Made by a program: the position numbers and the translations under genes
Notes under the pieces: model-generated
What the model was told of the DNA's origin: nothing
Database searches by the model: none
Seen by the model: only the letters and a program-made list of their open reading frames with translations
Shown: positions 701-61,327 of the stretch, piece by piece
Layout of the letters: every line of letters begins with the position of its first letter
How positions within the stretch are numbered: position 1 is the first letter of the stretch
Assembly (NCBI GenBank): GCA_032718475.1
Contig: JAUCBJ010005191.1
Coordinates: forward strand, 91-64,090
Reading direction: 5' to 3'
From: Nemertoderma westbladi
Lineage: Eukaryota; Animalia; Xenacoelomorpha
Length of the DNA stretch: 64,000 nt

Positions 701-1129
701 TATATAGTAATGTCAATTGATTGTTTTGAATTTTCGCTAAATGAATAAAACGTTTATGAAAATAAATAAAACTTTTAAAAATAAAAATTAGAGAATGAAT
801 GGGAATGCGGTGAACGGGGGCTATTATAGAGGGAGGCTAGAATGGAGTTGTGAAAGAAGAATAATCTATTGCAAGCCAGATGTTTCTTGAATTTTTCTCA
901 GGCGTATTTGGCAATGGTCGTGTGGTGTGTAATTAATGGTTGCAGTTGGCCTATGTGCGATTCGGGGTTACTGTTGGCGCGTAAGATGTAAACCTATGGT
1001 TTCCAATCTTACATGGTAACGAAGCTGGAGGCTTAAATAATTTACAGCTCGATGCAACCCCCACGTACACTTTGACATACAGTACCTCTATAAGGCGCAG
1101 AAAGAGTCCCGACTCAAACAGACAGAAAA

Positions 1130-3679: not shown

Positions 3680-3941
3680 GTTGCTTTACTTGCAAAACTC
3701 GTTACTCTAAAACGCAGCTGTTACTACAAAGACAAACGAGTTCACTTTACATTTCTAGTAATATAAACTTACTTTACTAGTAATATAAACTTACATTACA
3801 GCGCTCCTACAGCACCTAATGCATATTTATTATTAAATAATCGCGTTTTAGTCGCCTTCTTTCTATCAACTTAAACTTTTGCAACTCAATCGTCTATTTG
3901 AACGAATTCATCCATTTTTGTTCTTGTAAGTTTTGTTTTGG

Positions 3942-35663: not shown

Positions 35664-38600
35664 TAAGGATGTCCTAGCTATAATGATCAATGTTTATGTT
35701 GGCTCTTACGTGTTACTGTCTCCCAACAGTTAAGGATGACCTAGCTATATAATGATCTATGTATATGTTGGCTCTTACGTGTTACTGTCTCCCAACAGTA
35801 TTGGATGACCTAGCTATATAATGATCAATGTTTATGTTGGCTCTTACGTGTTACTGTCTCCCAACAGTATTGGATGACCTAGCTATATAATGATCAATGT
35901 TTATGTTGGCTCTTACGTGTTACTGTCTCCCAACAGTTAAGGATTAATGTTTATGTTGGCTCTTACGTGTTACTGTCTCCCAACAGTTAAGGATGACCTA
36001 GCTATATAATGATCAATGTTTATGTTGGCTCTTACGTGTTACTGTCTCCCAACAGTTAAGGATGACCTAGCTATATAATGATCAATGTTTATGTTGGCTC
36101 TTACGTGTTACTGTCTCCCAACAGTATTAGATGACCTAGCTATATAATGATCAATGTTTATGTTGGCTCTTACGTGTTACTGTCTCCCAACAGTTAAGGA
36201 TGGCCTAGCTATATAATGATCAATGTTTATGTTGGCTCTTACGTGTTACTGTCTCCCAACAGTATTGGACGACCTAGCTATATAATGATCAATGTTTATG
36301 TTGGCTCTTACGTGTTACTGTCTCCCAACAGTATTGGATGACCTAGCTATATAATGATCAATGTTTATGTTGGCTCTTACGTGTTACTGTCTCCCAACAG
36401 TTAAGGATGACCTAGCTATATAATGATCAATGTTTATGTTGGCTCTTACGTGTTACTGTCTCCCAACAGTTAAGGATGACCTAGCTATATAATGATCAAT
36501 GTTTATGTTGGCTCTTACGTGTTACTGTCTCCCAACAGTTAAGGATGACCTAGCTATATAATGATCAATGCTTATGTTGGCTCTTACGTGTTACTGTCTC
36601 CCAACAGTTAAGGATGACCTAGCTATATAATGATCAATGCTTATGTTGGCTCTTACGTGTTACTGTCTCCCAACAGTTAAGGATGGCCTAGCTATATAAT
36701 GATCAATGTTTATGTTGGCTCTTACGTGTTACTGTCTCCCAACAGTTAAGGATGACCTAGCTATATAATGATCAATGCTTATGTTGGCTCTTACGTGTTA
36801 CTGTCTCCCAACAGTTAAGGATGACCTAGCTATATAATGATCAATGTTTATGTTGGCTCTTACGTGTTACTGTCTCCCAACAGTATTGGATGACCTAGCT
36901 ATATAATGATCAATGCTTATGTTGGCTCTTACGTGTTACTGTCTCCCAACAGTTAAGGATGACCTAGCTATATAATGATCAATGTTTATGTTGGCTCTTA
37001 CGTGTTACTGTCTCCCAACAGTTAAGGATGACCTAGCTATATAATGATCAATGCTTATGTTGGCTCTTACGTGTTACTGTCTCCCAACAGTATTGGATGA
37101 CCTAGCTATATAATGATCAATGTTTATGTTGGCTCTTACGTGTTACTGTCTCCCAACAGTTAAGGATGACCTAGCTATATAATGATCAATGTTTATGTTG
37201 GCTCTTACGTGTTACTGTCTCCCAACAGTATTGGATGACCTAGCTATATAATGATCAATGTTTATGTTGGCTCTTACGTGTTACTGTCTCCCAACAGTAT
37301 TGGATGACCTAGCTATATAATGATCAATGTTTATGTTGGCTCTTACGTGTTACTGTCTCCCAACAGTTAAGGATGACCTAGCTATATAATGATCAATGTT
37401 TATGTTGGCTCTTACGTGTTACTGTCTCCCAACAGTATTGGATGACCTAGCTATATAATGATCAATGTTTATGTTGGCTCTTACGTGTTACTGTCTCCCA
37501 ACAGTTAAGGATGACCAGCTATATAATGATCAATGTTTATGTTGGCTCTTACGTGTTACTGTCTCCCAACAGTTAAGGATGACCTAGCTATATAATGATC
37601 AATGTTTATGTTGGCTCTTACGTGTTACTGTCTCCCAACAGTTAAGGATGACCTAGCTATATAATGATCAATGTTTATGTTGGCTCTTACGTGTTACTGT
37701 CTCCCAACAGTTAAGGATGACCTAGCTATATAATGATCAATGTTTATGTTGGCTCTTACGTGTTACTGTCTCCCAACAGTTAAGGATGACCTAGCTATAT
37801 AATGATCAATGTTTATGTTGGCTCTTACGTGTTACTGTCTCCCAACAGTTAAGGATGACCTAGCTATATAATGATCAATGTTTATGTTGGCTCTTACGTG
37901 TTACTGTCTCCCAACAGTTAAGGATGACCTAGCTATATAATGATCAATGTTTATGTTGGCTCTTACGTGTTACTGTCTCCCAACAGTTAAGGATGACCTA
38001 GCTATATAATGATCAATGTTTATGTTGGCTCTTACGTGTTACTGTCTCCCAACAGTTAAGGATGACCTAGCTATATAATGATCAATGTTTATGTTGGCTC
38101 TTACGTGTTACTGTCTCCCAACAGTATTGGATGACCTAGCTATATAATGATCAATGTTTATGTTGGCTCTTACGTGTTACTGTCTCCCAACAGTTAAGGA
38201 TGACCTAGCTATATAATGATCAATGCTTATGTTGGCTCTTACGTGTTACTGTCTCCCAACAGTTAAGGATGACCTAGCTATATAATGATCAATGCTTATG
38301 TTGGCTCTTACGTGTTACTGTCTCCCAACAGTTAAGGATGACCTAGCTATATAATGATCAATGTTTATGTTGGCTCTTACGTGTTACTGTCTCCCAACAG
38401 TTAAGGATGACCTAGCTATATAATGATCAATGCTTATGTTGGCTCTTACGTGTTACTGTCTCCCAACAGTTAAGGATGACCTAGCTATATAATGATCAAT
38501 GTTTATGTTGGCTCTTACGTGTTACTGTCTCCCAACAGTATTGGATGACCTAGCTATATAATGATCAATGTTTATGTTGGCTCTTACGTGTTACTGTCTC

Positions 38601-41600
38601 CCAACAGTTAAGGATGACCTAGCTATATAATGATCAATGTTTATGTTGGCTCTTACGTGTTACTGTCTCCCAACAGTATTGGATGACCAGCTATATAATG
38701 ATCAATGTTTATGTTGGCTCTTACGTGTTACTGTCTCCCAACAGTATTGGGATGACCTAGCTATATAATGATCAATGTTTATGTTGGCTCTTACGTGTTA
38801 CTGTCTCCCAACAGTATTGGATGACCAGCTATATAATGATCAATGTTTATGTTGGCTCTTACGTGTTACTGTCTCCCAACAGTTAAGGATGACCTAGCTA
38901 TATAATGATCAATGTTTATGTTGGCTCTTACGTGTTACTGTCTCCCAACAGTATTGGATGACCAGCTATATAATGATCAATGTTTATGTTGGCTCTTACG
39001 TGTTACTGTCTCCCAACAGTTAAGGATGACCTAGCTATATAATGATCAATGTTTATGTTGGCTCTTACGTGTTACTGTCTCCCAACAGTATTGGATGACC
39101 TAGCTATATAATGATCAATGTTTATGTTGGCTCTTACGTGTTACTGTCTCCCAACAGTGTTGGATGACCAGCTATATAATGATCAATGTTTATGTTGGCT
39201 CTTACGTGTTACTGTCTCCCAACAGTTAAGGATGACCTAGCTATATAATGATCAATGTTTATGTTGGCTCTTACGTGTTACTGTCTCCCAACAGTTAAGG
39301 ATGACCTAGCTATATAATGATCAATGTTTATGTTGGCTCTTACGTGTTACTGTCTCCCAACAGTATTGGATGACCAGCTATATAATGATCAATGTTTATG
39401 TTGGCTCTTACGTGTTACTGTCTCCCAACAGTTAAGGATGACCTAGCTATAATGATCAATGTTTATGTTGGCTCTTACGTGTTACTGTCTCCCAACAGTA
39501 TTGGATGACCAGCTATATAATGATCAATGTTTATGTTGGCTCTTACGTGTTACTGTCTCCCAACAGTTAAGGATGACCAGCTATATAATGATCAATGTTT
39601 ATGTTGGCTCTTACGTGTTACTGTCTCCCAACAGTTAAGGATGACCTAGCTATATAATGATCAATGTTTATGTTGGCTCTTACGTGTTACTGTCTCCCAA
39701 CAGTTAAGGATGACCTAGCTATATAATGATCAATGTTTATGTTGGCTCTTACGTGTTACTGTCTCCCAACAGTTAAGGATGACCAGCTATATAATGATCA
39801 ATGTTTATGTTGGCTCTTACGTGTTACTGTCTCCCAACAGTTAAGGATGACCTAGCTATATAATGATCAATGTTTATGTTGGCTCTTACGTGTTACTGTC
39901 TCCCAACAGTATTGGATGACCAGCTATATAATGATCAATGTTTATGTTGGCTCTTACGTGTTACTGTCTCCCAACAGTTAAGGATGACCTAGCTATATAA
40001 TGATCAATGTTTATGTTGGCTCTTACGTGTTACTGTCTCCCAACAGTTAAGGATGACCTAGCTATATAATGATCAATGTTTATGTTGGCTCTTACGTGTT
40101 ACTGTCTCCCAACAGTTAAGGATGACCTAGCTATATAATGATCAATGTTTATGTTGGCTCTTACGTGTTACTGTCTCCCAACAGTATTGGATGACCTAGC
40201 TATATAATGATCAATGTTTATGTTGGCTCTTACGTGTTACTGTCTCCCAACAGTATGGATGACCTAGCTATATAATGATCAATGTTTATGTTGGCTCTTA
40301 CGTGTTACTGTCTCCCAACAGTTATTGGATGACCTAGCTATATAATGATCAATGTTTATGTTGGCTCTTACGTGTTACTGTCTCCCAACAGTTAAGGATG
40401 ACCTAGCTATATAATGATCAATGTTTATGTTGGCTCTTACGTGTTACTGTCTCCCAACAGTATTGGATGACCTAGCTATATAATGATCAATGTTTATGTT
40501 GGCTCTTACGTGTTACTGTCTCCCAACAGTTAAGGATGACCTAGCTATATAATGATCAATGTTTATGTTGGCTCTTACGTGTTACTGTCTCCCAACAGTT
40601 ATGGATGACCTAGCTATATAATGATCAATGTTTATGTTGGCTCTTACGTGTTACTGTCTCCCAACAGTTAAGGATGACCTAGCTATATAATGATCAATGT
40701 TTATGTTGGCTCTTACGTGTTACTGTCTCCCAACAGTTAAGGATGACCTAGCTATATAATGATCAATGTTTATGTTGGCTCTTACGTGTTACTGTCTCCC
40801 AACAGTATTGGATGACCTAGCTATATAATGATCAATGTTTATGTTGGCTCTTACGTGTTACTGTCTCCCAACAGTTAAGGATGACCTAGCTATATAATGA
40901 TCAATGTTTATGTTGGCTCTTACGTGTTACTGTCTCCCAACAGTATTGGATGACCTAGCTATATAATGATCAATGTTTATGTTGGCTCTTACGTGTTACT
41001 GTCTCCCAACAGTTAAGGATGACCTAGCTATATAATGATCAATGTTTATGTTGGCTCTTACGTGTTACTGTCTCCCAACAGTATTGGATGACCTAGCTAT
41101 ATAATGATCAATGTTTATGTTGGCTCTTACGTGTTACTGTCTCCCAACAGTTAAGGATGACCTAGCTATATAATGATCAATGTTTATGTTGGCTCTTACG
41201 TGTTACTGTCTCCCAACAGTATTGGATGACCTAGCTATATAATGATCAATGTTTATGTTGGCTCTTACGTGTTACTGTCTCCCAACAGTTAAGGATGACC
41301 TAGCTATATAATGATCAATGTTTATGTTGGCTCTTACGTGTTACTGTCTCCCAACAGTATTGGATGACCTAGCTATATAATGATCAATGTTTATGTTGGC
41401 TCTTACGTGTTACTGTCTCCCAACAGTTAAGGATGACCTAGCTATATAATGATCAATGTTTATGTTGGCTCTTACGTGTTACTGTCTCCCAACAGTATTG
41501 GATGACCTAGCTATATAATGATCAATGTTTATGTTGGCTCTTACGTGTTACTGTCTCCCAACAGTATTGGATGACCTAGCTATATAATGATCAATGTTTA

Positions 41601-44600
41601 TGTTGGCTCTTACGTGTTACTGTCTCCCAACAGTTAAGGATGACCTAGCTATATAATGATCAATGTTTATGTTGGCTCTTACGTGTTACTGTCTCCCAAC
41701 AGTATTGGATGACCTAGCTATATAATGATCAATGTTTATGTTGGCTCTTACGTGTTACTGTCTCCCAACAGTTAAGGATGACCTAGCTATATAATGATCA
41801 ATGTTTATGTTGGCTCTTACGTGTTACTGTCTCCCAACAGTTATGGATGACCTAGCTATATAATGATCAATGTTTATGTTGGCTCTTACGTGTTACTGTC
41901 TCCCAACAGTTAAGGATGACCTAGCTATATAATGATCAATGTTTATGTTGGCTCTTACGTGTTACTGTCTCCCAACAGTATTGGATGACCTAGCTATATA
42001 ATGATCAATGTTTATGTTGGCTCTTACGTGTTACTGTCTCCCAACAGTTAAGGATGACCTAGCTATATAATGATCAATGTTTATGTTGGCTCTTACGTGT
42101 TACTGTCTCCCAACAGTATTGGATGACCTAGCTATATAATGATCAATGTTTATGTTGGCTCTTACGTGTTACTGTCTCCCAACAGTTAAGGATGACCTAG
42201 CTATATAATGATCAATGTTTATGTTGGCTCTTACGTGTTACTGTCTCCCAACAGTATTGGATGACCTAGCTATATAATGATCAATGTTTATGTTGGCTCT
42301 TACGTGTTACTGTCTCCCAACAGTATTGGATGACCTAGCTATATAATGATCAATGTTTATGTTGGCTCTTACGTGTTACTGTCTCCCAACAGTATTGGAT
42401 GACCTAGCTATATAATGATCAATGTTTATGTTGGCTCTTACGTGTTACTGTCTCCCAACAGTATTGGATGACCTAGCTATATAATGATCAATGTTTATGT
42501 TGGCTCTTACGTGTTACTGTCTCCCAACAGTATTGGATGACCTAGCTATATAATGATCAATGTTTATGTTGGCTCTTACGTGTTACTGTCTCCCAACAGT
42601 ATTGGATGACCTAGCTATATAATGATCAATGTTTATGTTGGCTCTTACGTGTTACTGTCTCCCAACAGTATTGGATGACCTAGCTATATAATGATCAATG
42701 TTTATGTTGGCTCTTACGTGTTACTGTCTCCCAACAGTTATGGATGACCTAGCTATATAATGATCAATGTTTATGTTGGCTCTTACGTGTTACTGTCTCC
42801 CAACAGTATTGGATGACCTAGCTATATAATGATCAATGTTTATGTTGGCTCTTACGTGTTACTGTCTCCCAACAGTTATGGATGACCTAGCTATATAATG
42901 ATCAATGTTTATGTTGGCTCTTACGTGTTACTGTCTCCCAACAGTATTGGATGACCTAGCTATATAATGATCAATGTTTATGTTGGCTCTTACGTGTTAC
43001 TGTCTCCCAACAGTATTGGATGACCTAGCTATATAATGATCAATGTTTATGTTGGCTCTTACGTGTTACTGTCTCCCAACAGTTAAGGATGACCTAGCTA
43101 TATAATGATCAATGTTTATGTTGGCTCTTACGTGTTACTGTCTCCCAACAGTATTGGATGACCTAGCTATATAATGATCAATGTTTATGTTGGCTCTTAC
43201 GTGTTACTGTCTCCCAACAGTTAAGGATGACCTAGCTATATAATGATCAATGTTTATGTTGGCTCTTACGTGTTACTGTCTCCCAACAGTATTGGATGAC
43301 CTAGCTATATAATGATCAATGTTTATGTTGGCTCTTACGTGTTACTGTCTCCCAACAGTTATGGATGACCTAGCTATATAATGATCAATGTTTATGTTGG
43401 CTCTTACGTGTTACTGTCTCCCAACAGTTAAGGATGACCTAGCTATATAATGATCAATGTTTATGTTGGCTCTTACGTGTTACTGTCTCCCAACAGTATT
43501 GGATGACCTAGCTATATAATGATCAATGTTTATGTTGGCTCTTACGTGTTACTGTCTCCCAACAGTATTGGATGACCTAGCTATATAATGATCAATGTTT
43601 ATGTTGGCTCTTACGTGTTACTGTCTCCCAACAGTATTGGATGACCTAGCTATATAATGATCAATGTTTATGTTGGCTCTTACGTGTTACTGTCTCCCAA
43701 CAGTATTGGATGACCTAGCTATATAATGATCAATGTTTATGTTGGCTCTTACGTGTTACTGTCTCCCAACAGTATTGGATGACCTAGCTATATAATGATC
43801 AATGTTTATGTTGGCTCTTACGTGTTACTGTCTCCCAACAGTATTGGATGACCTAGCTATATAATGATCAATGTTTATGTTGGCTCTTACGTGTTACTGT
43901 CTCCCAACAGTATTGGATGACCTAGCTATATAATGATCAATGTTTATGTTGGCTCTTACGTGTTACTGTCTCCCAACAGTATTGGATGACCTAGCTATAT
44001 AATGATCAATGTTTATGTTGGCTCTTACGTGTTACTGTCTCCCAACAGTTAAGGATGACCTAGCTATATAATGATCAATGTTTATGTTGGCTCTTACGTG
44101 TTACTGTCTCCCAACAGTATTGGATGACCTAGCTATATAATGATCAATGTTTATGTTGGCTCTTACGTGTTACTGTCTCCCAACAGTTAAGGATGACCTA
44201 GCTATATAATGATCAATGTTTATGTTGGCTCTTACGTGGTACTGTCTCCCAACAGTATTGGATGACCTAGCTATATAATGATCAATGTTTATGTTGGCTC
44301 TTACGTGTTACTGTCTCCCAACAGTTAAGGATGACCTAGCTATATAATGATCAATGTTTATGTTGGCTCTTACGTGTTACTGTTTCCCAACAGTTAAGGA
44401 TGACCAGCTATATAATGATCAATGTTTATGTTGGCTCTTACGTGTTACTGTTTCCCAACAGTTAAGGATGACCAGCTATATAATGATCAATGTTTATGTT
44501 GGCTCTTACGTGTTACTGTCTCCCAACAGTTAAGGATGACCTAGCTATATAATGATCAATGTTTATGTTGGCTCTTACGTGTTGCTGTCTCCCAACAGTT

Positions 44601-47600
44601 AAGGATGACCAGCTATATAATGATCAATGTTTATGTTGGCTCTTACGTGTTACTGTTTCCCAACAGTTAAGGATGACCAGCTATATAATGATCAATGTTT
44701 ATGTTGGCTCTTACGTGTTACTGTTTCCCAACAGTTAAGGATGACCTAGCTATATAATGATCAATGTTTATGTTGGCTCTTACGTGGTACTGTCTCCCAA
44801 CAGTATTGGATGACCTAGCTATATAATGATCAATGTTTATGTTGGCTCTTACGTGTTACTGTCTCCCAACAGTTAAGGATGACCTAGCTATATAATGATC
44901 AATGTTTATGTTGGCTCTTACGTGTTACTGTCTCCCAACAGTATTGGATGACCTAGCTATATAATGATCAATGTTTATGTTGGCTCTTACGTGGTACTGT
45001 CTCCCAACAGTATTGTATGACCAGCTATATAATGATCAATGTTTATGTTGGCTCTTACGTGTTACTGTCTCCCAACAGTTAAGGATGACCTAGCTATATA
45101 ATGATCAATGTTTATGTTGGCTCTTACGTGTTACTGTCTCCCAACAGTATTGGATGGCCTAGCTATATAATGATCAATGTTTATGTTGGCTCTTACGTGT
45201 TACTGTCTCCCAACAGTATTGGATGACCTAGCTATATAATGATCAATGTTTATGTTGGCTCTTACGTGTTATTGTCTCCCAACAGTTAAGGATGACCTAG
45301 CTATATAATGATCAATGTTTATGTTGGCTCTTACGTGTTACTGTCTCCCAACAGTTAAGGATGACCTAGCTATATAATGATCAATGTTTATGTTGGCTCT
45401 TACGTGTTACTGTCTCCCAACAGTATTGGATGACCTAGCTATATAATGATCAATGTTTATGTTGGCTCTTACGTGTTACTGTCTCCCAACAGTATTGGAT
45501 GACCTAGCTATATAATGATCAATGTTTATGTTGGCTCTTACGTGTTACTGTCTCCCAACAGTATTGGATGACCTAGCTATATAATGATCAATGTTTATGT
45601 TGGCTCTTACGTGTTACTGTCTCCCAACAGTTAAGGATGACCTAGCTATATAATGATCAATGTTTATGTTGGCTCTTACGTGTTACTGTCTCCCAACAGT
45701 TAAGGATGACCAGCTATATAATGATCAATGTTTATGTTGGCTCTTACGTGTTACTGTCTCCCAACAGTTAAGGATGACCTAGCTATATAATGATCAATGT
45801 TTATGTTGGCTCTTACGTGTTACTGTCTCCCAACAGTATTGGATGACCTAGCTATATAATGATCAATGTTTATGTTGGCTCTTACGTGTTACTGTCTCCC
45901 AACAGTATTGGATGACCTAGCTATATAATGATCAATGTTTATGTTGGCTCTTACGTGTTACTGTCTCCCAACAGTTAAGGATGACCTAGCTATATAATGA
46001 TCAATGTTTATGTTGGCTCTTACGTGTTACTGTCTCCCAACAGTTAAGGATGACCTAGCTATATAATGATCAATGTTTATGTTGGCTCTTACGTGTTACT
46101 GTCTCCCAACAGTTAAGGATGACCTAGCTATATAATGATCAATGTTTATGTTGGCTCTTACGTGTTACTGTCTCCCAACAGTATTGGATGACCTAGCTAT
46201 ATAATGATCAATGTTTATGTTGGCTCTTACGTGTTACTGTCTCCCAACAGTTAAGGATGACCTAGCTATATAATGATCAATGTTTATGTTGGCTCTTACG
46301 TGTTACTGTCTCCCAACAGTTAAGGATGACCTAGCTATATAATGATCAATGTTTATGTTGGCTCTTACGTGTTACTGTCTCCCAACAGTTAAGGATGACC
46401 TAGCTATATAATGATCAATGTTTATGTTGGCTCTTACGTGTTACTGTCTCCCAACAGTATTGGATGACCTAGCTATATAATGATCAATGTTTATGTTGGC
46501 TCTTACGTGTTACTGTCTCCCAACAGTTAAGGATGACCTAGCTATATAATGATCAATGTTTATGTTGGCTCTTACGTGTTACTGTCTCCCAACAGTATTG
46601 GATGACCAGCTATATAATGATCAATGTTTATGTTGGCTCTTACGTGTTACTGTCTCCCAACAGTATTGGATGACCAGCTATATAATGATCAATGTTTATG
46701 TTGGCTCTTACGTGTTACTGTCTCCCAACAGTATTGGATGACCTAGCTATATAATGATCAATGTTTATGTTGGCTCTTACGTGTTACTGTCTCCCAACAG
46801 TATTGGATGACCAGCTATATAATGATCAATGTTTATGTTGGCTCTTACGTGTTACTGTCTCCCAACAGTATTGGATGACCTAGCTATATAATGATCAATG
46901 TTTATGTTGGCTCTTACGTGTTACTGTCTCCCAACAGTATTGGATGACCAGCTATATAATGATCAATGTTTATGTTGGCTCTTACGTGTTACTGTCTCCC
47001 AACAGTATTGGATGACCTAGCTATATAATGATCAATGTTTATGTTGGCTCTTACGTGTTACTGTCTCCCAACAGTATTGGATGACCAGCTATATAATGAT
47101 CAATGTTTATGTTGGCTCTTACGTGTTACTGTCTCCCAACAGTATTGGATGACCTAGCTATATAATGATCAATGTTTATGTTGGCTCTTACGTGTTACTG
47201 TCTCCCAACAGTATTGGATGACCTAGCTATATAATGATCAATGTTTATGTTGGCTCTTACGTGTTACTGTCTCCCAACAGTTAAGGATGACCTAGCTATA
47301 TAATGATCAATGTTTATGTTGGCTCTTACGTGTTACTGTCTCCCAACAGTATTGGATGGCCTAGCTATATAATGATCAATGTTTATGTTGGCTCTTACGT
47401 GTTACTGTCTCCCAACAGTTAAGGATGACCTAGCTATATAATGATCAATGTTTATGTTGGCTCTTACGTGTTACTGTCTTCCAACAGTATTGGATGGCCT
47501 AGCTATATAATGATCAATGTTTATGTTGGCTCTTACGTGTTACTGTCTCCCAACAGTTAAGGATGACCAGCTATATAATGATCAATGTTTATGTTGGCTC

Positions 47601-48031
47601 TTACGTGTTACTGTCTCCCAACAGTTAAGGATGACCTAGCTATATAATGATCAATGTTTATGTTGGCTCTTACGTGTTACTGTCTCCCAACAGTATTGGA
47701 TGACCTAGCTATATAATGATCAATGTTTATGTTGGCTCTTACGTGTTACTGTCTCCCAACAGTTAAGGATGACCTAGCTATATAATGATCAATGTTTATG
47801 TTGGCTCTTACGTGTTACTGTCTCCCAACAGTATTGGATGACCTAGCTATATAATGATCAATGTTTATGTTGGCTCTTACGTGTTACTGTCTCCCAACAG
47901 TATTGGATGACCAGCTATATAATGATCTATGTATATGTTGGCTCTTACGTGTTACTGTCTCCCAACAGTATTGGATGACCTAGCTATATAATGATCAATG
48001 TTTATGTTCGCTCTTACGTTACTGTCTCCCA
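35664..48031. repeat. 69-bp satellite, about 179 copies (12.4 kb), two main variants; an orphan partial unit at 34521-34574
   Basis: Unit GGATGACCTAGCTATATAATGATCAATGTTTATGTTGGCTCTTACGTGTTACTGTCTCCCAACAG(TTAA/TATT), period 69. Confidence 0.97.
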
Positions 48032-48375
48032 GTTTCACTGTTGTTTCTCTTAGTCCTTCATTGTATGTTATGTTAGCAATAATGCAGAATGTTATTTATT
48101 TACTGTTGTATTTATTTATCATATAATTTATTTATTTAGTGTTTTGTTACTATAAGTGCTAAACTATCTGTAAATTAAAACTTTGGTTGAAATGGGGGAA
48201 TTATATGCTTTTTAAACTGCTTCATCACCGATCGGGGAGGGGGGTCTTCAAGTTATCTTTACCGGAACCAAAGTAATTTAGGAAACAGAATGGAAGGGTT
48301 TACTGTTGAAGATCACCCATGGTGGTGAACAGGCATTCCTTTAGGAAACAGAGTGGAAGGGTTTACTGTGGAAGA

Positions 48376-48471
48376 TCACCAATGGTGGCTGAACTGGTTA
48401 GCGCTACAACTGATGAGACCTGTTAGGCCGAAACGTACGAGTAGCGCTGGTTCAAACCCCGGTGACGTTTT
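48376..48471 (+). ncRNA. tRNA-like Pol III element (SINE/retrozyme-like) with a degenerate minimal type I hammerhead ribozyme between A and B boxes
   Basis: A box TGGCTGAACTGG 48386-48397. B box GGTTCAAACCC 48449-48459. Terminal TCACC/GGTGA pairing. 8-bp stem AGCGCTAC/GTAGCGCT enclosing CTGATGA-GACCTGTTAGGCC-GAAACGTA. T4 at 48468-48471. Confidence 0.6.
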
Positions 48472-49136
48472 ATTACATCATGTTATAGAAAATCATTTCA
48501 TATATATTATTTTCTCAATAAATATTTTTAGCCAGTTATAAATAATATTTAAAATTAATTACAAACACAAATCATTTATAAATAATTTACTAAACGCGTG
48601 TTAAATTTTTTTAGCCCAGCACAAATAAATCGAAGGAACTACAAACACTAAGTAAAATCACATTTTAAATCCACTGCATTGTTCCAAGTATCTAAAAATA
48701 ATTATTACATAATAAATAATAATTGATACTACACTAAACATTGATACTTTATTCAGTCAATAATATATACGTTACCGGTACTTCATATTATTATCCATTG
48801 ACTATTGTACATATGAGAGCGGATTATAGCGTCTCTATCAATTTAATTTGATAAATATATATTTGTTAGAAAATAGTATATTCAATTACCTTTATAAGGT
48901 AAGTAACCCACAAACGACAAAATAAACTATATAATGTTGAATATACTTCCTCTGTAACATGTTCCTCCTTTACATCAATTAATAATTAACATTAATTAGC
49001 GTTAGTAATGGTTGTCGGTGTAGCTTTTAGAAGTATTGATTATTATTCTGGCGAACAGACAACGGTTAAACTAAACAAGTTATTTAGTTACTTTTGAAAG
49101 ATATTCTTCTAACTAAAATGAATTCCAATCAGGAAA

Positions 49137-50009
49137 CTAAAGTTTTGAACTTTTGCGATCCATCATTCCTTGTATCAGATCGATAGGCAATGGGAATACA
49201 ATAGTAGAGTTCTTCTCCGCCGATATGGTTGTCAGGGTCTGCATGTATCTCAGTTGCAGGGCTATAGGCGATTCAGAAATAACATCGGAAGCCTCTTTGA
49301 GGGCCTTCGAGGCTTTCCACTCACCTTCAGCAGCAATAACTTTAGCCTTAGCTTCACGAGCTGCTTCGGCCTCAGCTGCCATCGCTCGCTGCATTTGAAC
49401 TGGTAAACGAACATCTTTAACCTCAACCCTCTCAACCTTCACTCCCCAAGGATCAGTGGCCGAATCAAGCATGGTCTGCATGCTATGACTGATATGCTCT
49501 CGATCAGACAAAACCTCGAAAAGATTTTTGGTTCCCAGAACGTTTCGCAAGGTCGTGGCTGAGAGTAGACGTGTTGATCTGTCAAAATGCTCCACATTTG
49601 TTATGGAAATAATGGGATTGAAGACCCTGTAGTAGACAACAGCATCAACAGCAACTGTAACAGAATCTTTGGTCAGGATCTCTTGGGGAGGCACGTCAAA
49701 CGAGACGGTTCTTAGATCGACTTTTTGGTAGTTGTCGGTGCACGGTAGAATGCAGAAAAGACCGGGTCCTTTCGCCCCACCTTGGAGGATTCGACCCAGA
49801 CGAAATATAACAGCTCTTTCATATTCCTGTACGATTTTGAAACACATGAAGATGCTGATAGGGAAGGTAAGAACGACAGCGATAAAACTTAGGAAAATCA
49901 ATATGTAGTCGCATATTCCTCTTTTGGGGGCTTGACCTCTGTCATTGTATAATTCGCCTTCACTGCCCACCCGAGCTGAGGTATTATCCATAATAGGTAA
50001 ATCAATCAT
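49137..50009 (-). CDS. Stomatin / band 7 (SPFH) family protein, MEC-2-like; intronless
   Basis: 290-aa ORF with hydrophobic hairpin ..TFPISI, VQEYERAVIFRLGR, KGPGLFCILPCTD, FDVPPQEILTKDSVTVAVDAVVYYR, WGVKVERVEVKDVRLP, QRAMAAEAEAAREA and ALQLRYMQTL. Confidence 0.97.
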   Translation of the reverse strand: MIDLPIMDNTSARVGSEGELYNDRGQAPKRGICDYILIFLSFIAVVLTFPISIFMCFKIVQEYERAVIFRLGRILQGGAKGPGLFCILPCTDNYQKVDLRTVSFDVPPQEILTKDSVTVAVDAVVYYRVFNPIISITNVEHFDRSTRLLSATTLRNVLGTKNLFEVLSDREHISHSMQTMLDSATDPWGVKVERVEVKDVRLPVQMQRAMAAEAEAAREAKAKVIAAEGEWKASKALKEASDVISESPIALQLRYMQTLTTISAEKNSTIVFPLPIDLIQGMMDRKSSKL

Positions 50010-50486
50010 TTAGTTTGATAAGAAGAAATTGGTTACGGCCGAGAAAGAAACAAATGTAATTTATAGTTCAGTTAGGAAACAATTATTGCGATTAGTACTC
50101 CAATCAGTATGCAGTACAATATATCTTGTATGTGCACTGTACATACATATAATGGGCATGTTATTTATAGACGCTATACAAACAAACCGTAGTGGAATTC
50201 ACAAGGCAATATTCTATTAACTGTATAATATAGAGGTTTTGATATGCCAGGCGGTGTGTTGTATGATAAATTACCGAACAACGTCAGCAACAAATAGATA
50301 TAATTGCATGTCGGATCATAAAATATCCCCAGTCCAGAGGACAATGTCTAATAAGCAATGAGATATATCTTGCCTTGAGAATGTATATTATTAGTAATAT
50401 TTGATACGGCTATGTTAGCTATGGGTGAGAGGAGATACAATATCTGACGATATGAGATCGTGTGAGATGAGTGCATATAGTTACAC

Positions 50487-51109: not shown

Positions 51110-54100
51110 TTTATTGTTACAGTGAACATTGCTTTATTGTAACTCTTATTATTACAGTGAACATTGCTTTATTGTAACTCTTATTATTACAGTGAACATT
51201 GCTTTATTGTAACTCTTATTATTACAGTGAACATTGCTTTATTGTAACTCTTATTATTACAGTGAACATTGCTTTATTGTAACTCTTATTATTACAGTGA
51301 ACATTGCTTTATTGTAACTCTTATTATTACAGTGAACATTGCTTTATTGTAACTCTTATTATTACAGTGAACATTGCTTTATTGTAACTCTTATTATTAC
51401 AGTGAACATTGCTTTATTGTAACTCTTATTATTACAGTGAACATTGCTTTATTGTAACTCTTATTATTACAGTGAACATTGCTTTATTGTAACTCTTATT
51501 ATTACAGTGAACATTGCTTTATTGTAACTCTTATTATTACAGTGAACATTGCTTTATTGTAACTCTTATTATTACAGTGAACATTGCTTTATTGTAACTC
51601 TTATTATTACAGTGAACATTGCTTTATTGTAACTCTTATTATTACAGTGAACATTGCTTTATTGTAACTCTTATTATTAGAGGGAACATTGCTTTATTGT
51701 AACTCTTATTATTACAGTGAACATTGCTTTATTGTAACTCTTATTATTACAGTGAACATTGCTTTATTGTAACTCTTATTATTACAGTGAACATTGCTTT
51801 ATTGTAACTCTTATTATTACAGTGAACATTGCTTTATTGTAACTCTTATTATTACAGTGAACATTGCTTTATTGTAACTCTTATTATTACAGTGAACATT
51901 GCTTTATTGTAACTCTTATTATTACAGTGAACATTGCTTTATTGTAACTCTTATTATTACAGGGAACATTGCTTTATTGTAACTCTTATTATTACAGTGA
52001 ACAGTGCTATATTGTAACTCTTATTATTACAGTGAACATTGCTTTATTGTAACTCTTATTATTACAGTGAACATTGTTTTATTGTAACTCTTATTATTAC
52101 AGTGAACAGTGCTTTATTGTAACTCTTATTATTACAGTGAACATTGCTTTATTGTAACTCTTATTATTACAGTGAACATTGCTTTATTGTAACTCTTATT
52201 ATTACAGTGAACATTGCTTTATTGTAACTCTTATTATTACAGTGAACATTGCTTTATTGTAACTCTTATTATTACAGTGAACAGTGCTTTATTGTAACTC
52301 TTATTATTACAGTGAACAGTGCTTTATTGTAACTCTTATTATTACAGTGAACATTGCTTTATTGTAACTCTTATTATTACAGTGAACATTGCTTTATTGT
52401 AACTCTTATTATTACAGTGAACATTGCTTTATTGTAACTCTTATTATTACAGTGAACATTGCTTTATTGTAACTCTTATTATTACAGTGAACAGTGCTTT
52501 ATTGTAACTCTTATTATTACAGTGAACATTGCTTTATTGTAACTCTTATTATTACAGTGAACATTGCTTTATTGTAACTCTTATTATTACAGTGAACATT
52601 GCTTTATTGTAACTCTTATTATTACAGTGAACAGTGCTTTATTGTAACTCTTATTATTACCGTGAACATTGCTTTATTGTAACTCTTATTATTACAGTGA
52701 ACATTGCTTTATTGTAACTCTTATTATTACAGTGAACAGTGCTTTATTGTAACTCTTATTGTTACAGTGAACAGTGCTTTATTGTAACCCTTATTATTAC
52801 AGTGAACATTGCTTTATTGTAACTCTTATTATTACAGTGAACATTGCTTTATTGTAACTCTTATTATTAGAGGGAACATTGCTTTATTGTAACTCTTATT
52901 ATTACAGTGAACATTGCTTTATTGTAACTCTTATTATTACAGTGAACATTGCTTTATTGTAACTCTTATTATTACAGTGAACATTGCTTTATTGTAACTC
53001 TTATTATTACAGTGAACATTGCTTTATTGTAACTCTTATTATTACAGTGAACATTGCTTTATTGTAACTCTTATTATTACAGTGAACATTGCTTTATTGT
53101 AACTCTTATTATTACAGTGAACATTGCTTTATTGTAACTCTTATTATTACAGTGAACAGTGCTTTATTGTAACTCTTATTATTACAGTGAACATTGCTTT
53201 ATTGTAACTCTTATTATTACAGTGAACATTGCTTTATTGTAACTCTTATTATTACAGTGAACATTGCTTTATTGTAACTCTTATTATTACAGTGAACATT
53301 GCTTTTTTGTAACTCTTATTATTACAGTGAACAGTGCTTTATTGTAACTCTTATTATTACAGTGAACATTGCTTTATTGTAACTCTTATTATTAGAGGGA
53401 ACATTGCTTTATTGTAACTCTTATTATTACAGTGAACATTGCTTTATTGTAACTCTTATTATTAGAGGGAACATTGCTTTATTGTAACTCTTATTATTAC
53501 AGTGAACATTGCTTTATTGTAACTCTTATTATTACAGTGAACATTGCTTTATTGTAACTCTTATTATTAGAGGGAACATTGCTTTATTGTAACTCTTATT
53601 ATTACAGTGAACATTGCTTTATTGTAACTCTTATTATTACAGTGAACATTGCTTCATTGTAACTCTTATTATTACAGTGAACATTGCTTTATTGTAACTC
53701 TTATTATTACAGTGAACATTGCTTTATTGTAACTCTTATTATTACAGTGAACATTGCTTTATTGTAACTCTTATTATTACAGTGAACATTGCTTTATTGT
53801 AACTCTTATTATTACAGTGAACATTGCTTTATTGTAACTCTTATTATTACAGTGAACATTGCTTTATTGTAACTCTTATTATTACAGTGAACATTGCTTT
53901 ATTGTAACTCTTATTATTACAGTGAACATTGCTTTATTGTAACTCTTATTATTACAGTGAACATTGCTTTATTGTAACTCTTATTATTACAGTGAACATT
54001 GCTTTATTGTAACTCTTATTATTACAGTGAACATTGCTTTATTGTAACTCTTATTATTACAGTGAACATTGCTTTATTGTAACTCTTATTATTACAGTGA

Positions 54101-54865
54101 ACATTGCTTTATTGTAACTCTTATTATTACAGTGAACATTGCTTTATTGTAACTCTTATTATTACAGTGAACATTGCTTTATTGTAACTCTTATTATTAC
54201 AGTGAACATTGCTTTATTGTAACTCTTATTATTACAGTGAACATTGCTTTATTGTAACTCTTATTATTACAGTGAACATTGCTTTATTGTAACTCTTATT
54301 ATTACAGTGAACATTGCTTTATTGTAACTCTTATTATTATAGTGAACATTGCTTTATTGTAACTCTTATTATTACAGTGAACATTGCTTTATTGTAACTC
54401 TTATTATTACAGTGAACAGTGCTTTATTGTAACTCTTATTATTACAGTGAACATTGCTTTATTGTAACTCTTATTATTACAGTGAACAGTGCTTTATTGT
54501 AACTCTTATTATTACAGTGAACATTGCTTTATTGTAACTCTTATTATTACAGTGAACATTGCTTTATTGTAACTCTTATTATTACAGTGAACATTGCTTT
54601 ATTGTAACTCTTATTATTACAGTGAACATTGCTTTATTGTAACTCTTATTATTACAGTGAACATTGCTTTATTGTAACTCTTATTATTACAGTGAACATT
54701 GCTTTATTGTAACTCTTATTATTACAGTGAACATTGCTTTATTGTAACTCTTATTATTACAGTGAACATTGCTTTATTGTAACTCTTATTATTACAGTGA
54801 ACATTGCTTTATTGTAACTCTTATTATTAGAGTGAACATTGCTTTATTGTAACTCGTATTATTGT
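51110..54865. repeat. 35-bp AT-rich satellite, about 107 copies
   Basis: Unit AGTGAACATTGCTTTATTGTAACTCTTATTATTAC, period 35. Confidence 0.97.
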
Positions 54866-55588: not shown

Positions 55589-56304
55589 ATGGCCGACAGC
55601 TTGGACCTTGAAAACCGTGATCCAAATGAGATAAACATACACGTTAGAGTGAGTATAAGTAAATAATATTATATACAAACCTGGGCCAACAATAAATTGT
55701 ACATTTGGAGTTTTCATCAGAAATACTAGAAAAGCATTTCTTAGCAATCTTTCTTAGCGAAAGTAGTTGATTTTCTTTAGCTTTGTGGATAATATGACTT
55801 TTTACGATTAACCAAAATTTTGTGTTCACGCCAAAAACTCCTGCTAACGAAAATGCCTGCTAACGTCAGTAGCCACGGAATAAAACGTTAACGATTTAAA
55901 GAATAAACATAATTATTTACACTAAACCTATTATTTCAACCTAAGAGATTACTCTAACTTTATAGGCTCTATTTGAAGACGTACTTGCGGAGCCAGAAGG
56001 GGCCCATTCCATCGACTGTCTATGGAAGCTAACCTACCAGTGTTTCACCGGTACAAAGTCGGTCTGCTATATGATACTGACCACGATATTGGGTCTACCT
56101 CTTGCTTTCGCTTGGGGCTTGTCTTTCGCCTGCATGTCGTTCGAATTGGTCTGGTGTGTGACCCCGCTGCTAAAGATATACTTTGTGGAGTTGGCGGCCT
56201 ACAGAATGCTGTACACCAGCGTGATTCGTTGTGTTTGTGATCCCTGCTTCGAGTCATGTGGTCGTATATGTGGCGACATGAAGGTCACCCAAGTCAAAGG
56301 ATAA
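55589..56304 (+). CDS. Caveolin (132 aa), two coding exons 55589-55648 and 55966-56304
   Basis: Exon 1 MADSLDLENRDPNEINIHVR|gtgagt. Acceptor ctaactttatag|. Exon 2 ALFEDVLAEPEGAHSIDCLWKLTYQCFTGTKSVCYMILTTILGLPLAFAWG...CDPCFESCGRICGDMKV. It has the caveolin signature (FEDVxAEP), the RDP motif, and a phase-0 intron where caveolins usually have one. Confidence 0.95.
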
Positions 56305-58896: not shown

Positions 58897-60195
58897 TTAT
58901 GTTGAGTTAAAATGCAGTCGGCTGCGCCCTATAGAACCACTGAGACCCTGGGTTGGTATGGCGATCTGTCTGGCTGGCGGAGTGGCGCCACCCAGCGACG
59001 GACCGCTGCACATAGAACCTGTGGGAGAAGGACAGGGAGGAGTGCGTCCCCTGGGAGCTGGGCAGGTGGGAGTGCGTCCCTTGGGAGCTGGGCAAGGGGG
59101 AGTGCGTCCCTTGGGAGCTGGGCAGGGGGGAGTGCGTCCCTTGGGGGTGAGCCCCGGCAGCCTCCCAACGGGCTCCACTATACGCCCATCCACTATCACT
59201 CGTTTCATACTGACCCGTTGCTGCTGGCTGCCGGGGGGCGTAGCGTTGTACCCTGCGGGCGGTGTGTAGACGTACCCCGGTGTAGAGCGGCCGGATCTCT
59301 GGGAACTACCTAGGTAGGGAGGGGTGCAGCCTGGTCTATCGCCCACCCTGTTGGGTAGGTAAGGGGGCGTGCACCCAGCATTGGCGAGGTTGATTGGTGG
59401 AGTGCAACTCTGTTGGAACGGGGAGTAATCCATAGGGGATACCGGGTATTTAATGGGCACCGAGGAGCCAGACATGGGGCTATATCTGTAAGAAGCACAA
59501 CCGGGTGTGACCACAACACGCTGCGATTGTTGCTGGTAGATATTCGCAGTCCCATTGGCACCCGTAGGTTGACTTTGTTGATTACCTCTCACCGCTATTG
59601 GTTGGCCACGCCCGCCAATAGCAGCAGCCGTATGGACGCCCAACCCACCAATAGCAGGTCGTTGCTGCACCTGAGTCCCACCACCTCGTCTGTATTGAAT
59701 CACTTCGTTTCTAAGATTTAGGTTTTCCCTTTTCAGATCTTCCATTTCGCGTTGAAGCTTTTCCGTCCCGGTTTGACATGTTTGTAGCGTCTCCTTTTCA
59801 CTTTGCAGTTTTTCGATTACCTTTTGCATACTTTTCATTTGCTCCCCATATTTCGATCTGTCTCTTTCGAGAACCTTATTTTTTGTCATTAGGAACGCCA
59901 TCAGACGAGATCTGTGTTGCTTCTGGAATTTAGTGACACGGCTGACTTCGGTCAAACACTTCTGAATATGCGCTTCCGCATCCGCAAAAAACGATTGAAT
60001 TTCAGGCCTGAGTGGGTTGACCAATGGCACGAGGTTACATGGGGAGCAATCACACATGTAACATTTGTCCCGTTTAACCTCAACAGTACAGGTTTCGCAA
60101 TAGAGATGACCACACGCTGATAAGAAGAACTTTTTCTTTTCTGGTCCATTCGGTTGGATGCTACATTTATTGCAATGAACAATATCGATATTCAT
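58897..60195 (-). CDS. RNF212: RNF212/RNF212B-like (Zip3/ZHP-3 family) meiotic RING E3 ligase; intronless
   Basis: 432-aa ORF with an N-terminal RING (VHCNKC...FFLSACGHLYCETC...CYMCDCSPC...EIQSFFAD), KFQKQHRSRL, a coiled coil and a disordered S/T/P-rich tail. RNF212 versus RNF212B cannot be resolved by eye. Confidence 0.85.
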   Translation of the reverse strand: MNIDIVHCNKCSIQPNGPEKKKFFLSACGHLYCETCTVEVKRDKCYMCDCSPCNLVPLVNPLRPEIQSFFADAEAHIQKCLTEVSRVTKFQKQHRSRLMAFLMTKNKVLERDRSKYGEQMKSMQKVIEKLQSEKETLQTCQTGTEKLQREMEDLKRENLNLRNEVIQYRRGGGTQVQQRPAIGGLGVHTAAAIGGRGQPIAVRGNQQSQPTGANGTANIYQQQSQRVVVTPGCASYRYSPMSGSSVPIKYPVSPMDYSPFQQSCTPPINLANAGCTPPYLPNRVGDRPGCTPPYLGSSQRSGRSTPGYVYTPPAGYNATPPGSQQQRVSMKRVIVDGRIVEPVGRLPGLTPKGRTPPCPAPKGRTPPCPAPKGRTPTCPAPRGRTPPCPSPTGSMCSGPSLGGATPPARQIAIPTQGLSGSIGRSRLHFNST

Positions 60196-61327
60196 CGCAA
60201 CAAATTAATACAAGGATCGATAATTGGATATAATACGAGCGTTTAGATAAACTACAGGATTAAGTTATGTTCAACAACGATGGTCCTGTCATTCGGTCAA
60301 CCATCTTAGAACGAAAACATCACATATTTGTTTATGGGTTTGCTACTGTCTCACAGTAGATATGATATGCGTTGCTGGTTACGTACAGAAATACAGTTAT
60401 GACGATAACCTATAGCTTTTACACAAGCGGATTACAGTGTAAGAGCCTTAAAAGCGTAGTGAATAATAGTTACCCATATCACACAAGAAGCATTAAGAAA
60501 TTGAAACTAAGCAAAACAGTGTCTAGTCTGACAGTGTCCGACAGATATATGCTTTTTTCCACTGAATCTTGCGCTTGCATGGGGGTATATTATAGTAAAT
60601 GTTTTGGGTGATTTTGGTGCGAAATTTTATTGTGATCAATAATCCGATGCCGACTGATGCCCAGCTTACATCATTGAGGATTTTGTGTAATTAACAATAT
60701 AAAAAATTGTCCCCAGCAACGGTTAAGACAATTTATCCGATTGCTTCCATATATTTTAGTTTTTAAATTTACTGTTGAAAATGAACAAATGGTACGTAAT
60801 TCCATTACAATTAAACTTATATCACCGGAATCCCCATATTATGGCGCACTTTTAGACAATTTTCATTTCAGTCACACGTCACATAGGCCTATTTTTGCTC
60901 AAGTTAAAGATAGGTTTTGAATGTATTTGGCTGCAAGTTTAAATTAATACATCCATTGTAATTTTGGACAGATTTTTTAAATATATTAAGATGCAAGCTG
61001 GAATTTAAGATTGAAGTTGATGCAATGGTATGTTAGGCCTATTCAATTAATTTTTAAAATTAATTTCTGAATTTAACTGTACAAACTACCGATACAATAT
61101 AGCACTCTTTATAACTTGAAACCTGGGCTGCATCCATTGGAATAATAGTGAGTAAAAACGTTCTGGAACACACCCCTGTGGGTACATTTACTATATACTG
61201 TACTTCCATGCAAGGTATAATGCAATGCAATATCTTCCGGACTAGGCCTATTTGCCTATACAGTAGGCCTACTAAACCTCTAGAATCGGCAGATCGGTAG
61301 GCCTATTATACTGCTATACAGCCATTC

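What the first reader, a model, noticed from the sequence alone, without database searches (positions are those of the whole stretch)
48376..48471. tRNA-like Pol III cassette with a hammerhead ribozyme core in place of the anticodon loop
Seen within 96 bp: TCACC...GGTGA closing stem, a consensus A box (TGGCTGAACTGG), an 8-bp stem AGCGCTAC/GTAGCGCT, a B box (GGTTCAAACCC) and a T4 terminator. The stem encloses CTGATGA, a stem II hairpin GACCT-GTT-AGGCC (one mismatch from GGCCT/AGGCC), and GAAA-CG-TA. Established: CUGAUGA...GAAA with a tiny palindromic stem III (ACGU) is the minimal type I hammerhead of Penelope-like elements and metazoan retrozymes, which cleaves as a dimer. tRNA-derived SINEs carrying hammerheads exist (Schistosoma SM-alpha). 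I do not recall one with the ribozyme nested between the A and B boxes. Inference: a self-promoting, self-cleaving mini-retroelement with predicted cleavage after GUA at 48437. This copy is probably impaired by mismatches in stem II and at the base of stem I.
Basis: partly seen in the sequence, partly recalled or inferred. Interest (0 to 1): 0.78.

Follow-up and report, generated by a model that had tools for sequence, protein, structure and literature searches.

The report
Decayed hammerhead-in-tRNA repeat copy
This is a cut-off, mutated and likely dead copy of a many-copy animal repeat in which a hammerhead ribozyme motif sits between the two boxes of a tRNA-type promoter; intact copies likely cut their own RNA in the middle of that promoter and likely spread as a retrozyme-type jumping element.

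Summary
It is a family: 258 and 154 contigs of two DNA runs lay on it. The family repairs stem II (G at 48418 in 98-100% of depth) and mostly lacks 48406-48408, which brings a 7-9-bp stem I flush onto the core. The cut site is then 48441, not 48437. The window has a non-cleavable triplet there; one printed contig unit has canonical GUA, and three indirect signs suggest the family differs from the window at 48438-48441. The closing stem and T4 are accidents: TCACC belongs to another, far more abundant repeat. The family's own ends show a 7-bp tRNA-like terminal stem plus T6 and continue beyond it. Verdict: a dead, truncated fragment of a retrozyme/Sm-alpha-like family with the ribozyme nested inside its promoter; new variant of a known kind. 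The scan already noted this nested design twice in tandem arrays elsewhere in this genome (unreviewed; same family not shown). Unit length, transcription and cleavage are untested.

The parts
48264..48388 (+). Not part of the hammerhead family.
   Evidence: Self-match 48277-48333 to 48340-48397 at 91%; summed contig depth up to 2.9-4.0 million in X1, X2, X4 against 13-37 in unique flanks; its own loose ends leave the window at 48388
48385..48388 (+). 4-nt microhomology (GTGG) at which the abundant repeat is joined to the hammerhead family fragment
   Evidence: Abundant repeat matches up to 48388 (table 7); family pieces start at 48383-48388 (table 8)
48386..48397 (+). A box (tRNA D-arm-like)
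   Evidence: Sequence, motif scan; kept in family loose-end consensus of X2 and X4, less well in X1
48398..48409 (+). 5' strand of hammerhead stem I; 48406-48408 is a 3-nt insertion relative to the commonest family form and pushes the stem off the core
   Evidence: 3 letters left out at 48406 in 13 contigs (931 of 1350 depth) in X2 and 9 contigs (282 of 785) in X1; a contig of this same locus in X2 has 3 gap letters (record 16; record 13)
48410..48416 (+). Hammerhead core C3-A9 (CTGATGA)
   Evidence: Sequence; listed variants at 48414 and 48416 are each under 2% of depth
48417..48429 (+). Stem II, 5 bp with 3-nt loop; A48418 is a mismatch in this copy
   Evidence: G at 48418 in 32,887 of 33,358 depth (X2) and 12,556 of 12,780 (X1); commonest other changes are in the loop (48423) or keep a G-U pair (48429)
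48430..48441 (+). GAAA core, palindromic stem III (CGTACG 48434-39) and the position of the cleavage triplet (48439-41), which reads GAG in this copy: no U16.1 and no H17
   Evidence: Register enumeration; one contig unit with TA at 48440-41 (table 5c); consensus criteria in PMC3088659
48442..48450 (+). 3' strand of stem I (7 Watson-Crick pairs plus 2 G-U in the family register)
48449..48459 (+). B box (tRNA T-arm-like); 51 nt after the end of the A box
48460..48467 (+). Last family-derived bases; the family continues with the 3' strand of a terminal stem, a T6 run and further shared sequence, all missing here
   Evidence: Loose ends behind 48467 in 20 (X2) and 12 (X1) contigs, agreement 0.82 and 0.80; depth falls to single-copy at 48471

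Best explanation
The window holds a truncated, likely inactive fragment (48385-48467) of a multi-copy non-coding repeat family in which a type I hammerhead motif replaces the anticodon arm of a tRNA-like sequence, and intact copies likely work as a retrozyme: likely transcribed from their internal A/B boxes or by read-through, predicted to self-cleave at the position matching 48441, and likely ligated into circles and pasted back by a borrowed reverse transcriptase. Shown: the motifs, the family, its repaired stems I and II, the join to another repeat, the truncation. Inferred: that the common family form has a cleavable triplet; that cleavage is helped by pairing of two copies through the palindromic stem III; that the mobile unit is longer than the tRNA-like part. 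Because the cut falls between the A and B boxes, a linear cut monomer would carry a split promoter, and only a re-ligated circle or a more-than-unit copy would restore it. This fragment was likely joined to the neighbouring repeat by template switch or recombination at a 4-nt microhomology, then decayed.
For: Family: 258 (X2) and 154 (X1) contigs laid on 48383-48500, of which 76 and 57 carry parts that do not fit, i.e. their own flanks; summed depth over the core 54-63k (X1), 143-148k (X2), 185-203k (X4), 2.4-2.9k (X3) against 13-37 in unique flanks. Rough arithmetic gives 74-2,295, 184-5,695, 284-8,806 and 3-79 copy equivalents (the tool warns that depth is no copy number). Stem repair: 48418 G, 3-nt deletion. 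Model built from those differences plus the TA seen in one contig: the two-molecule minimum-energy fold is the textbook double hammerhead (core unpaired, 8-bp stem I, 5-bp stem II, 8-bp intermolecular stem III, A17 free; -59.4 against 2 x -24.2 kcal/mol). Signs that the window departs from the family at 48438-48441: 0 of 258 (X2) and 1 of 154 (X1) contigs are 99% alike although high-depth short contigs pile on 48419-48467; two contigs entering from the unique 3' flank leave their last 4 letters, the place of 48438-41, unaligned (X1 record 8, X4 record 32); depth dips at 48439-42 in both runs. Shared sequence runs on for the 30 letters printed past 48467. Helix III of 1-2 bp with a small palindromic loop is the canonical metazoan form (PMC4209133). 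Such hammerheads sit in 150-450-bp retrozyme repeats that circularise through RtcB (PMC7229834).
Against: The cleavable triplet was seen in letters in one contig only (depth 54, a degenerate tandem unit, table 5c), and TA there could also arise by local slippage of CGTA; the variant table is blind at 48438-48467 (my reading of its from_end column), so the family's triplet is not shown. No full unit or tandem array of this family was seen; the only joints listed are 40-nt and similar short back-steps in single contigs. A T5-T6 run about 10 nt after 48467 in the family should stop Pol III after about 100 nt, before any second hammerhead, which fits poorly with Pol III-made multimers. With the window's AG the family stems fold into a locked form (core pairs C3 with 48441, P=1.0, 6.1 kcal/mol to free it), so if AG is common the bulk of the family is dead. 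No compensatory base-pair change was demonstrated. No partner reverse transcriptase was linked.
Confidence: 0.6

Rival explanations
1. The family's working unit is a short (about 100 nt) Pol III RNA shaped like a tRNA: 7-bp terminal stem, D arm, hammerhead in place of the anticodon arm, T arm, T6 terminator. Two such RNAs would pair by the palindrome and nick each other's or their own centre, leaving halves held by stem I with 2',3'-cyclic phosphate and 5'-OH ends that RtcB could rejoin; the shared flanks would come from DNA-level amplification of the gene.
For: Loose-end consensuses put GGGAAAG exactly in the seven positions before the A-box T (X2, X4) and CTTTCTC, then A, then T6 on the 3' side (X1, X2): 6 Watson-Crick pairs and 1 G-U, the layout of a tRNA acceptor stem, discriminator and terminator (pairing read by eye from two separate consensus strings).
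Against: 5' consensus agreement is only 0.59-0.67 over 10-18 contigs and X1's differs; five extra bases lie between T stem and terminal stem; hundreds of diverged dispersed copies look mobile rather than gene-like; a short RNA that cuts its own middle cannot easily be copied back. The terminal stem and T-run may simply be inherited from the tRNA gene that donated the promoter.
Confidence: 0.22
2. The family is now a tRNA-derived SINE-like or satellite-like repeat whose hammerhead is a dead relic: the AG at 48440-41 is the common form, extends stem I over the core and switches cleavage off, which lets the whole transcript survive and be copied.
For: The window and, by inference, the X2 contig of this locus carry AG; AG gives a more stable fold (-29.1 against -24.2 kcal/mol) that buries C3-U4; no variant row is listed at 48440-41; cryptic mutant hammerheads in repeats are common (PMC3088659).
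Against: The variant table cannot list these positions; almost no laid contig is identical to the window across them; core and stem II are near-invariant in the family, which suggests selection or recent activity.
Confidence: 0.13
3. One reading: a self-contained 96-nt mini-retroelement closed by TCACC/GGTGA, with a minimal Penelope-type hammerhead cutting after 48437.
For: All motifs are present in the window and GTA 48435-37 is a canonical triplet with an ACGU palindrome.
Against: 0 of 9 stem I pairs in register at that site in the window and 2 G-U of 9 in the family form; TCACC and T4 are not family sequence; helix sizes do not fit the min-HHR description (PMC4209133).
Confidence: 0.03

Closest known systems
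Sm-alpha / Sj-alpha SINE-like hammerhead retroposons of Schistosoma (review PMC6765202 passages; PMC2770079 passages; the original papers were not available)
   Same: tRNA-derived Pol III promoter plus type I hammerhead in a high-copy non-coding repeat; single copies lose the ability to propagate.
   Different: The review describes a promoter followed by the hammerhead; here the ribozyme lies between the A and B boxes and the cut would split the promoter. Transcription and cleavage are shown for Sm-alpha, not here.
Metazoan non-LTR retrozymes (PMC7229834 passages and part 2 of 6; bioRxiv 10.64898/2026.07.22.740005 abstract and passages)
   Same: Type I hammerhead with weak palindromic helix III, no protein coding, many copies, solo derivatives common.
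   Different: Neither paper mentions Pol III (0 occurrences each) and the preprint has no mention of tRNA or promoter; unit length, tandem arrangement and circular RNA are not shown for this family.
Minimal hammerheads of Penelope-like elements (PMC4209133, parts 1-2 of 4)
   Same: Predicted to work as a dimer through a palindrome.
   Different: Min-HHRs have no helix III, helix II of 7-8 bp, helix I of 4-5 bp and an extra base after A9; here helix II is 5 bp, helix I 7-9 bp, no extra base, helix III 2 bp plus tetraloop.
tRNA-derived SINEs and Helenus TRIMs (PMC10886601 passages; PMC5786205 passages)
   Same: Captured tRNA sequence likely serving as an internal Pol III promoter of a non-autonomous element.
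   Different: No hammerhead is described in them; PMC5786205 argues that a ribozyme downstream of a SINE head causes 5' truncation, so retention of an intact one needs a circular or multimeric route.
Engineered tRNA-embedded hammerheads (recalled, no call; search returned no such paper)
   Same: Ribozyme placed in the anticodon arm between A and B boxes for Pol III expression.
   Different: Those are laboratory trans-acting constructs; this is a natural cis-cleaving motif in a repeat.

Membership tests
Type I hammerhead ribozyme (window allele) | Core C3-A9 and G12-A15 | tested here: met
   48410-16 and 48430-33; criteria from PMC3088659
Type I hammerhead ribozyme (window allele) | U16.1 and H17 with stem I paired directly at the core (1.1-2.1) | tested here: not met
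   Both canonical triplets (48437, 48443) lack the adjacent stem I pairs; the registers with stem I have non-canonical triplets
Type I hammerhead ribozyme (family form) | Stem II closed by G10.1-C11.1 and stem I flush on C3 | tested here: met
   48418 G in 98-99% of depth; 3-nt deletion is the commonest indel; 7 WC + 2 G-U pairs
Type I hammerhead ribozyme (family form) | U16.1 and H17 | tested here: inconclusive
   Seen in letters in 1 contig unit; three indirect signs of a difference at 48438-41; variant table blind there
Type I hammerhead ribozyme (family form) | Self-cleavage | not testable with these tools
   Needs in vitro assay
Penelope min-HHR | No helix III/loop 3, long helix II, short helix I, extra base after A9 | tested here: not met
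Non-LTR retrozyme | Multi-copy non-coding repeat with type I hammerhead | tested here: met
Non-LTR retrozyme | Tandem units of 150-450 bp | tested here: inconclusive
   Window copy is solo; shared sequence continues for the 30 letters printed on the 3' side; no genome held
Non-LTR retrozyme | Unit-length circular RNA | not testable with these tools
   No RNA reads could be laid
Sm-alpha type SINE-like retroposon | Promoter followed by the hammerhead | tested here: not met
   Hammerhead lies between A box 48386-97 and B box 48449-59; layout of Sm-alpha from review only
tRNA-derived SINE | A and B boxes at workable spacing | tested here: met
   51 nt apart; function untested
tRNA-derived SINE | Target site duplication and simple 3' tail at the insertion | tested here: not met
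   No direct repeat of 6 nt or more between 48150-48390 and 48462-48508; applies to this truncated copy only
tRNA-derived SINE | 3' end shared with a partner LINE or Penelope | not tested
   No genome held
tRNA gene | Cloverleaf with anticodon loop | tested here: not met
   ARAGORN 0 genes; no Rfam tRNA match

The most novel reading that the evidence does not exclude
A natural tRNA-shaped ribozyme: a roughly 100-nt Pol III RNA with acceptor-like stem and terminator whose anticodon arm is an active hammerhead. Two RNAs pair through an 8-nt palindrome, cut between the A and B boxes, and are rejoined by the tRNA ligase, so that the ribozyme plays the part of the tRNA-splicing endonuclease and only correctly re-ligated molecules regenerate a promoter and spread.
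Probability: 0.2. Interest if true: 0.75.

Novelty: new variant of a known kind. Interest (0 to 1): 0.42.

Why it matters
How animal retrozymes are transcribed is open: the two retrozyme papers checked do not mention Pol III. A family that carries its hammerhead inside a tRNA-type promoter offers a direct test, since one construct reports on promoter, cleavage and ligation together, and it predicts that promoter integrity depends on circularisation. The family's tRNA-like terminal stem and T6 add a puzzle, because they should stop transcription before a second ribozyme. This locus itself is a dead fragment, and the nested design has already been noted twice by this scan in the same genome, so its added value is the corrected register, the terminal stem and terminator, and a locus where active-like and locked alleles may both exist.

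Tried and rejected
No whole genome is held, so no genome-wide BLAST, alignment, covariance model or covariation test was possible. No RNA holder listed; this says nothing on expression. Runs X6 and X7 (two other organisms): 0 contigs laid, no proof of absence. Parts of the flanks without cover in X2 and X3 are not read as presence/absence polymorphism. Pattern scans: general core-plus-B-box pattern gave 0 in viral contigs and 19 loci in metagenomes, 0 of 19 with an A-box match in the 60 nt upstream and none resembling this family; family-specific patterns gave 0 in viral contigs and 0 in prokaryote genomes. Rfam weak hits mir-103 (E 0.61, outside the element), sR32 box C/D snoRNA (10.9 bits, gathering 40) and Twister-P5 (10 bits, gathering 37.6) rejected as chance. 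Cleavage at 48437 or 48443 rejected. No target duplication and no inverted Penelope-like tail within 47900-49100. An early reading that the bulk family has AG at 48440-41 was withdrawn once I saw that the variant table lists nothing within about 30 letters of an alignment end. Look-ups of earlier findings by sequence or relatives found no look-alike, so identity with the 369-bp array family is neither shown nor excluded. Eight paper searches showed no description of a natural hammerhead nested between A and B boxes; Ferbeyre 1998, Lunse 2017 (not held) and Laha 2000 (not tried) are unread, and no supplements were read, so the Sm-alpha layout could be closer than the review suggests.

Full report
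Setting. The window is from an animal: a 290-aa Band 7 ORF next to the site has its best matches among invertebrate stomatins at up to 80% identity, and most of the window is tandem repeats. The element lies between a 12-kb array of 69-bp units ending at 48031 and the stop codon of the stomatin ORF at 49137 on the other strand. No whole genome is held, so family evidence comes from contigs of public DNA runs: 5 of 8 listed runs hold the stretch 48040-50100, from 3 studies; one may be the source of the assembly.

Observation. In 150 simulated 64-kb sequences a core with stem II appeared 17 times and the full cassette 0 times. ARAGORN finds no tRNA, Rfam finds no hammerhead or tRNA at E up to 10, and the fold is not unusually stable (z -1.26), as expected of a damaged copy.

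It is a family, and the window is a composite. Laying four runs on 48200-48620 gave two piles. The first, 48277-48388, reaches summed depths of 2.9-4.0 million (0.24 million in X3) and is a different repeat present here as about two 63-bp partial copies; it contains the TCACC. The second, 48409-48467, reaches 63k, 148k, 2.9k and 203k in X1-X4 against 13-37 in unique flanks. On 48383-48500 alone, 258 contigs of X2 and 154 of X1 were laid, 76 and 57 of them with parts that do not fit. Depth is not a copy number; bracketing for stacked short contigs gives 74-2,295 (X1), 184-5,695 (X2), 284-8,806 (X4) and 3-79 (X3), with point estimates near 100-350 for X1, X2 and X4. The two repeats overlap at GTGG 48385-88, and both continue with similar letters, which points to a join by template switch or recombination (inference). 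The family match stops at 48467/8. No target duplication of 6 nt or more flanks the composite.

What the family looks like. G replaces A at 48418 in 98-99% of depth, restoring a perfect 5-bp stem II; the next commonest changes are in the loop (48423) or turn the closing pair into G-U (48429); core changes are each under 2%. The commonest indel removes 48406-48408 (13 contigs in X2, 9 in X1), and a single-copy contig of this very locus in X2 has 3 gap letters and 1 other letter (record 16). Without these three bases stem I has 7 Watson-Crick and 2 G-U pairs and sits directly on C3, and its 3' strand begins at 48442, so N17 is 48441. Loose ends show, on the 5' side, GGGAAAG in the seven places before the A box (18 contigs in X2, 14 in X4; agreement 0.59-0.67; the X1 consensus differs) and, on the 3' side, two bases, then CTTTCTC, A and six T, then more shared sequence to the end of the 30 letters printed (20 and 12 contigs, agreement 0.82 and 0.80). 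Read by eye these form a 7-bp acceptor-like stem, discriminator and terminator. So the family is a whole tRNA-like frame with the hammerhead in place of the anticodon arm, embedded in something longer; the window has lost both strands of that terminal stem.

Is the ribozyme alive? In the window the triplet at 48439-41 is GAG. It fails the U16 and H17 consensus used by Perreault et al. (PMC3088659, passages), and AG pairs with C3-U4 and locks the core. With the insertion and the stem II mismatch as well, this allele is very likely dead. For the family the answer is indirect. Every row of the variant tables has a contig with the change at least 30 letters from its end, so places 48438-48467 cannot be listed (my reading). 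Three signs say the family differs from the window there: 0 of 258 and 1 of 154 contigs are 99% alike although short deep contigs pile on 48419-48467; two contigs that enter from the unique 3' flank leave exactly their last four letters unaligned (X1 record 8, X4 record 32), which also suggests that other chromosomes carry the family form at this locus; and depth dips at 48439-42. The one contig unit whose letters are printed has TA at 48440-41 (table 5c). That gives GUA, an A15.1-U16.1 pair, a 2-bp helix III with a palindromic tetraloop, and an 8-nt palindrome. Modelled by coordinate, the two-molecule minimum-energy fold is the double hammerhead. This is the canonical metazoan type I form, not the minimal Penelope form (PMC4209133, parts 1-2 of 4). 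Against: one contig, slippage could also give TA, and no covariation was shown.

Mechanism. Best supported (0.6): a retrozyme-type element. Transcripts with two hammerheads would cut to unit length, be circularised by RtcB as shown for axolotl and mussel retrozymes (PMC7229834, passages and part 2 of 6), and be copied back by a Penelope or LINE enzyme (bioRxiv 10.64898/2026.07.22.740005, abstract and passages). All of these steps are inferred. The cut would leave the B box at the 5' end and the A box at the 3' end of a monomer, so only a circle or a longer-than-unit copy restores the promoter. The main difficulty is the T5-T6 run just after the B box, which should end Pol III transcription at about 100 nt (general knowledge). 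That supports the first rival (0.22), a short tRNA-shaped RNA that is nicked and perhaps re-ligated. A relic reading (0.13) holds if AG proves common.

Comparison. The nearest known elements are Sm-alpha/Sj-alpha, described in a review as a promoter followed by a hammerhead (PMC6765202, passages; PMC2770079, passages), and non-LTR retrozymes, for which the two papers checked do not mention Pol III. Helenus TRIMs and SINEs show tRNA capture without a hammerhead (PMC10886601 and PMC5786205, passages); PMC8490949 (passages) has hammerheads but no Pol III or tRNA mention. Eight searches showed no natural nested case; the original Sm-alpha papers, the dimer paper of Lunse et al. and all supplements are unread. 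Unreviewed notes of this scan report a hammerhead inside a tRNA-type promoter in two tandem arrays of the same genome and a promoter-then-hammerhead family of about 412 bp. They moved me toward a longer retrozyme unit but are not evidence, and sequence look-ups did not link them to this copy.

Verdict. A real feature and a real family; this copy is a truncated, fused and likely inactive fragment. New variant of a known kind, interest 0.42.

Noticed in passing
window 48264-48388: A second repeat of extreme abundance (summed depth 2.9-4.0 million; at least about 1,500-2,800 copy equivalents in X1, X2, X4). Its loose ends show a longer unit whose two ends look roughly complementary, and it occurs in short tandem steps of 62-72 bp. 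Class unknown; no earlier finding matches it.
   Followed up: partly
window 48406-48408 and 48438-48441: Contigs of this same locus in other samples appear to differ from the window at these places, so a family-like and a locked allele of the ribozyme may both segregate, or the assembly may be in error here.
   Followed up: partly
window 48390-48395 with 48449-48454: In the predicted folds the A-box and B-box segments pair with each other and extend stem I past a 4-nt bulge, which could serve as loop 1 for a tertiary contact with loop 2.
   Followed up: no
window 2549-3679 (+), 11685-13361 (-), 49137-50009 (-), 58897-60204 (-): Bax inhibitor-1-family, pyruvate kinase, stomatin and RING-finger genes each lie in one uninterrupted frame, as does a caveolin frame at 55966-56304, amid long tandem arrays: an intron-poor gene set or many retrocopies.
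   Followed up: partly
window 34821-35510 (-) and 1364-1651 (+): Two fragments of the same LINE-like reverse transcriptase family (RVT_1 plus DUF6451 for the first; the second shares its C-terminal peptide). No link to the hammerhead family was tested.
   Followed up: no
window 35946-48031, 22355-28075, 29275-33723, 51111-54863: Very homogeneous satellite arrays (69 bp x 175, 16 bp x 365, 61 bp x 73, 35 bp x 107); the 16-bp unit is telomere-like and has no C on the + strand.
   Followed up: no
L005:57-112, L007:56-111, L011:59-114, L018:59-114: A repeated hammerhead core with a strong stem II followed by a B-box-like motif, with different 3' flanks, on four contigs of one metagenome (L002 has a similar stem II); no A-box match upstream. 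Possibly an unrelated eukaryotic repeat of similar design.
   Followed up: no
run X3 versus X1, X2, X4: X3 shows far lower depth on both repeats relative to its single-copy depth and different majority variants (an insertion behind 48407, another 3' flank), which may mark a diverged population or just a thinner run.
   Followed up: no
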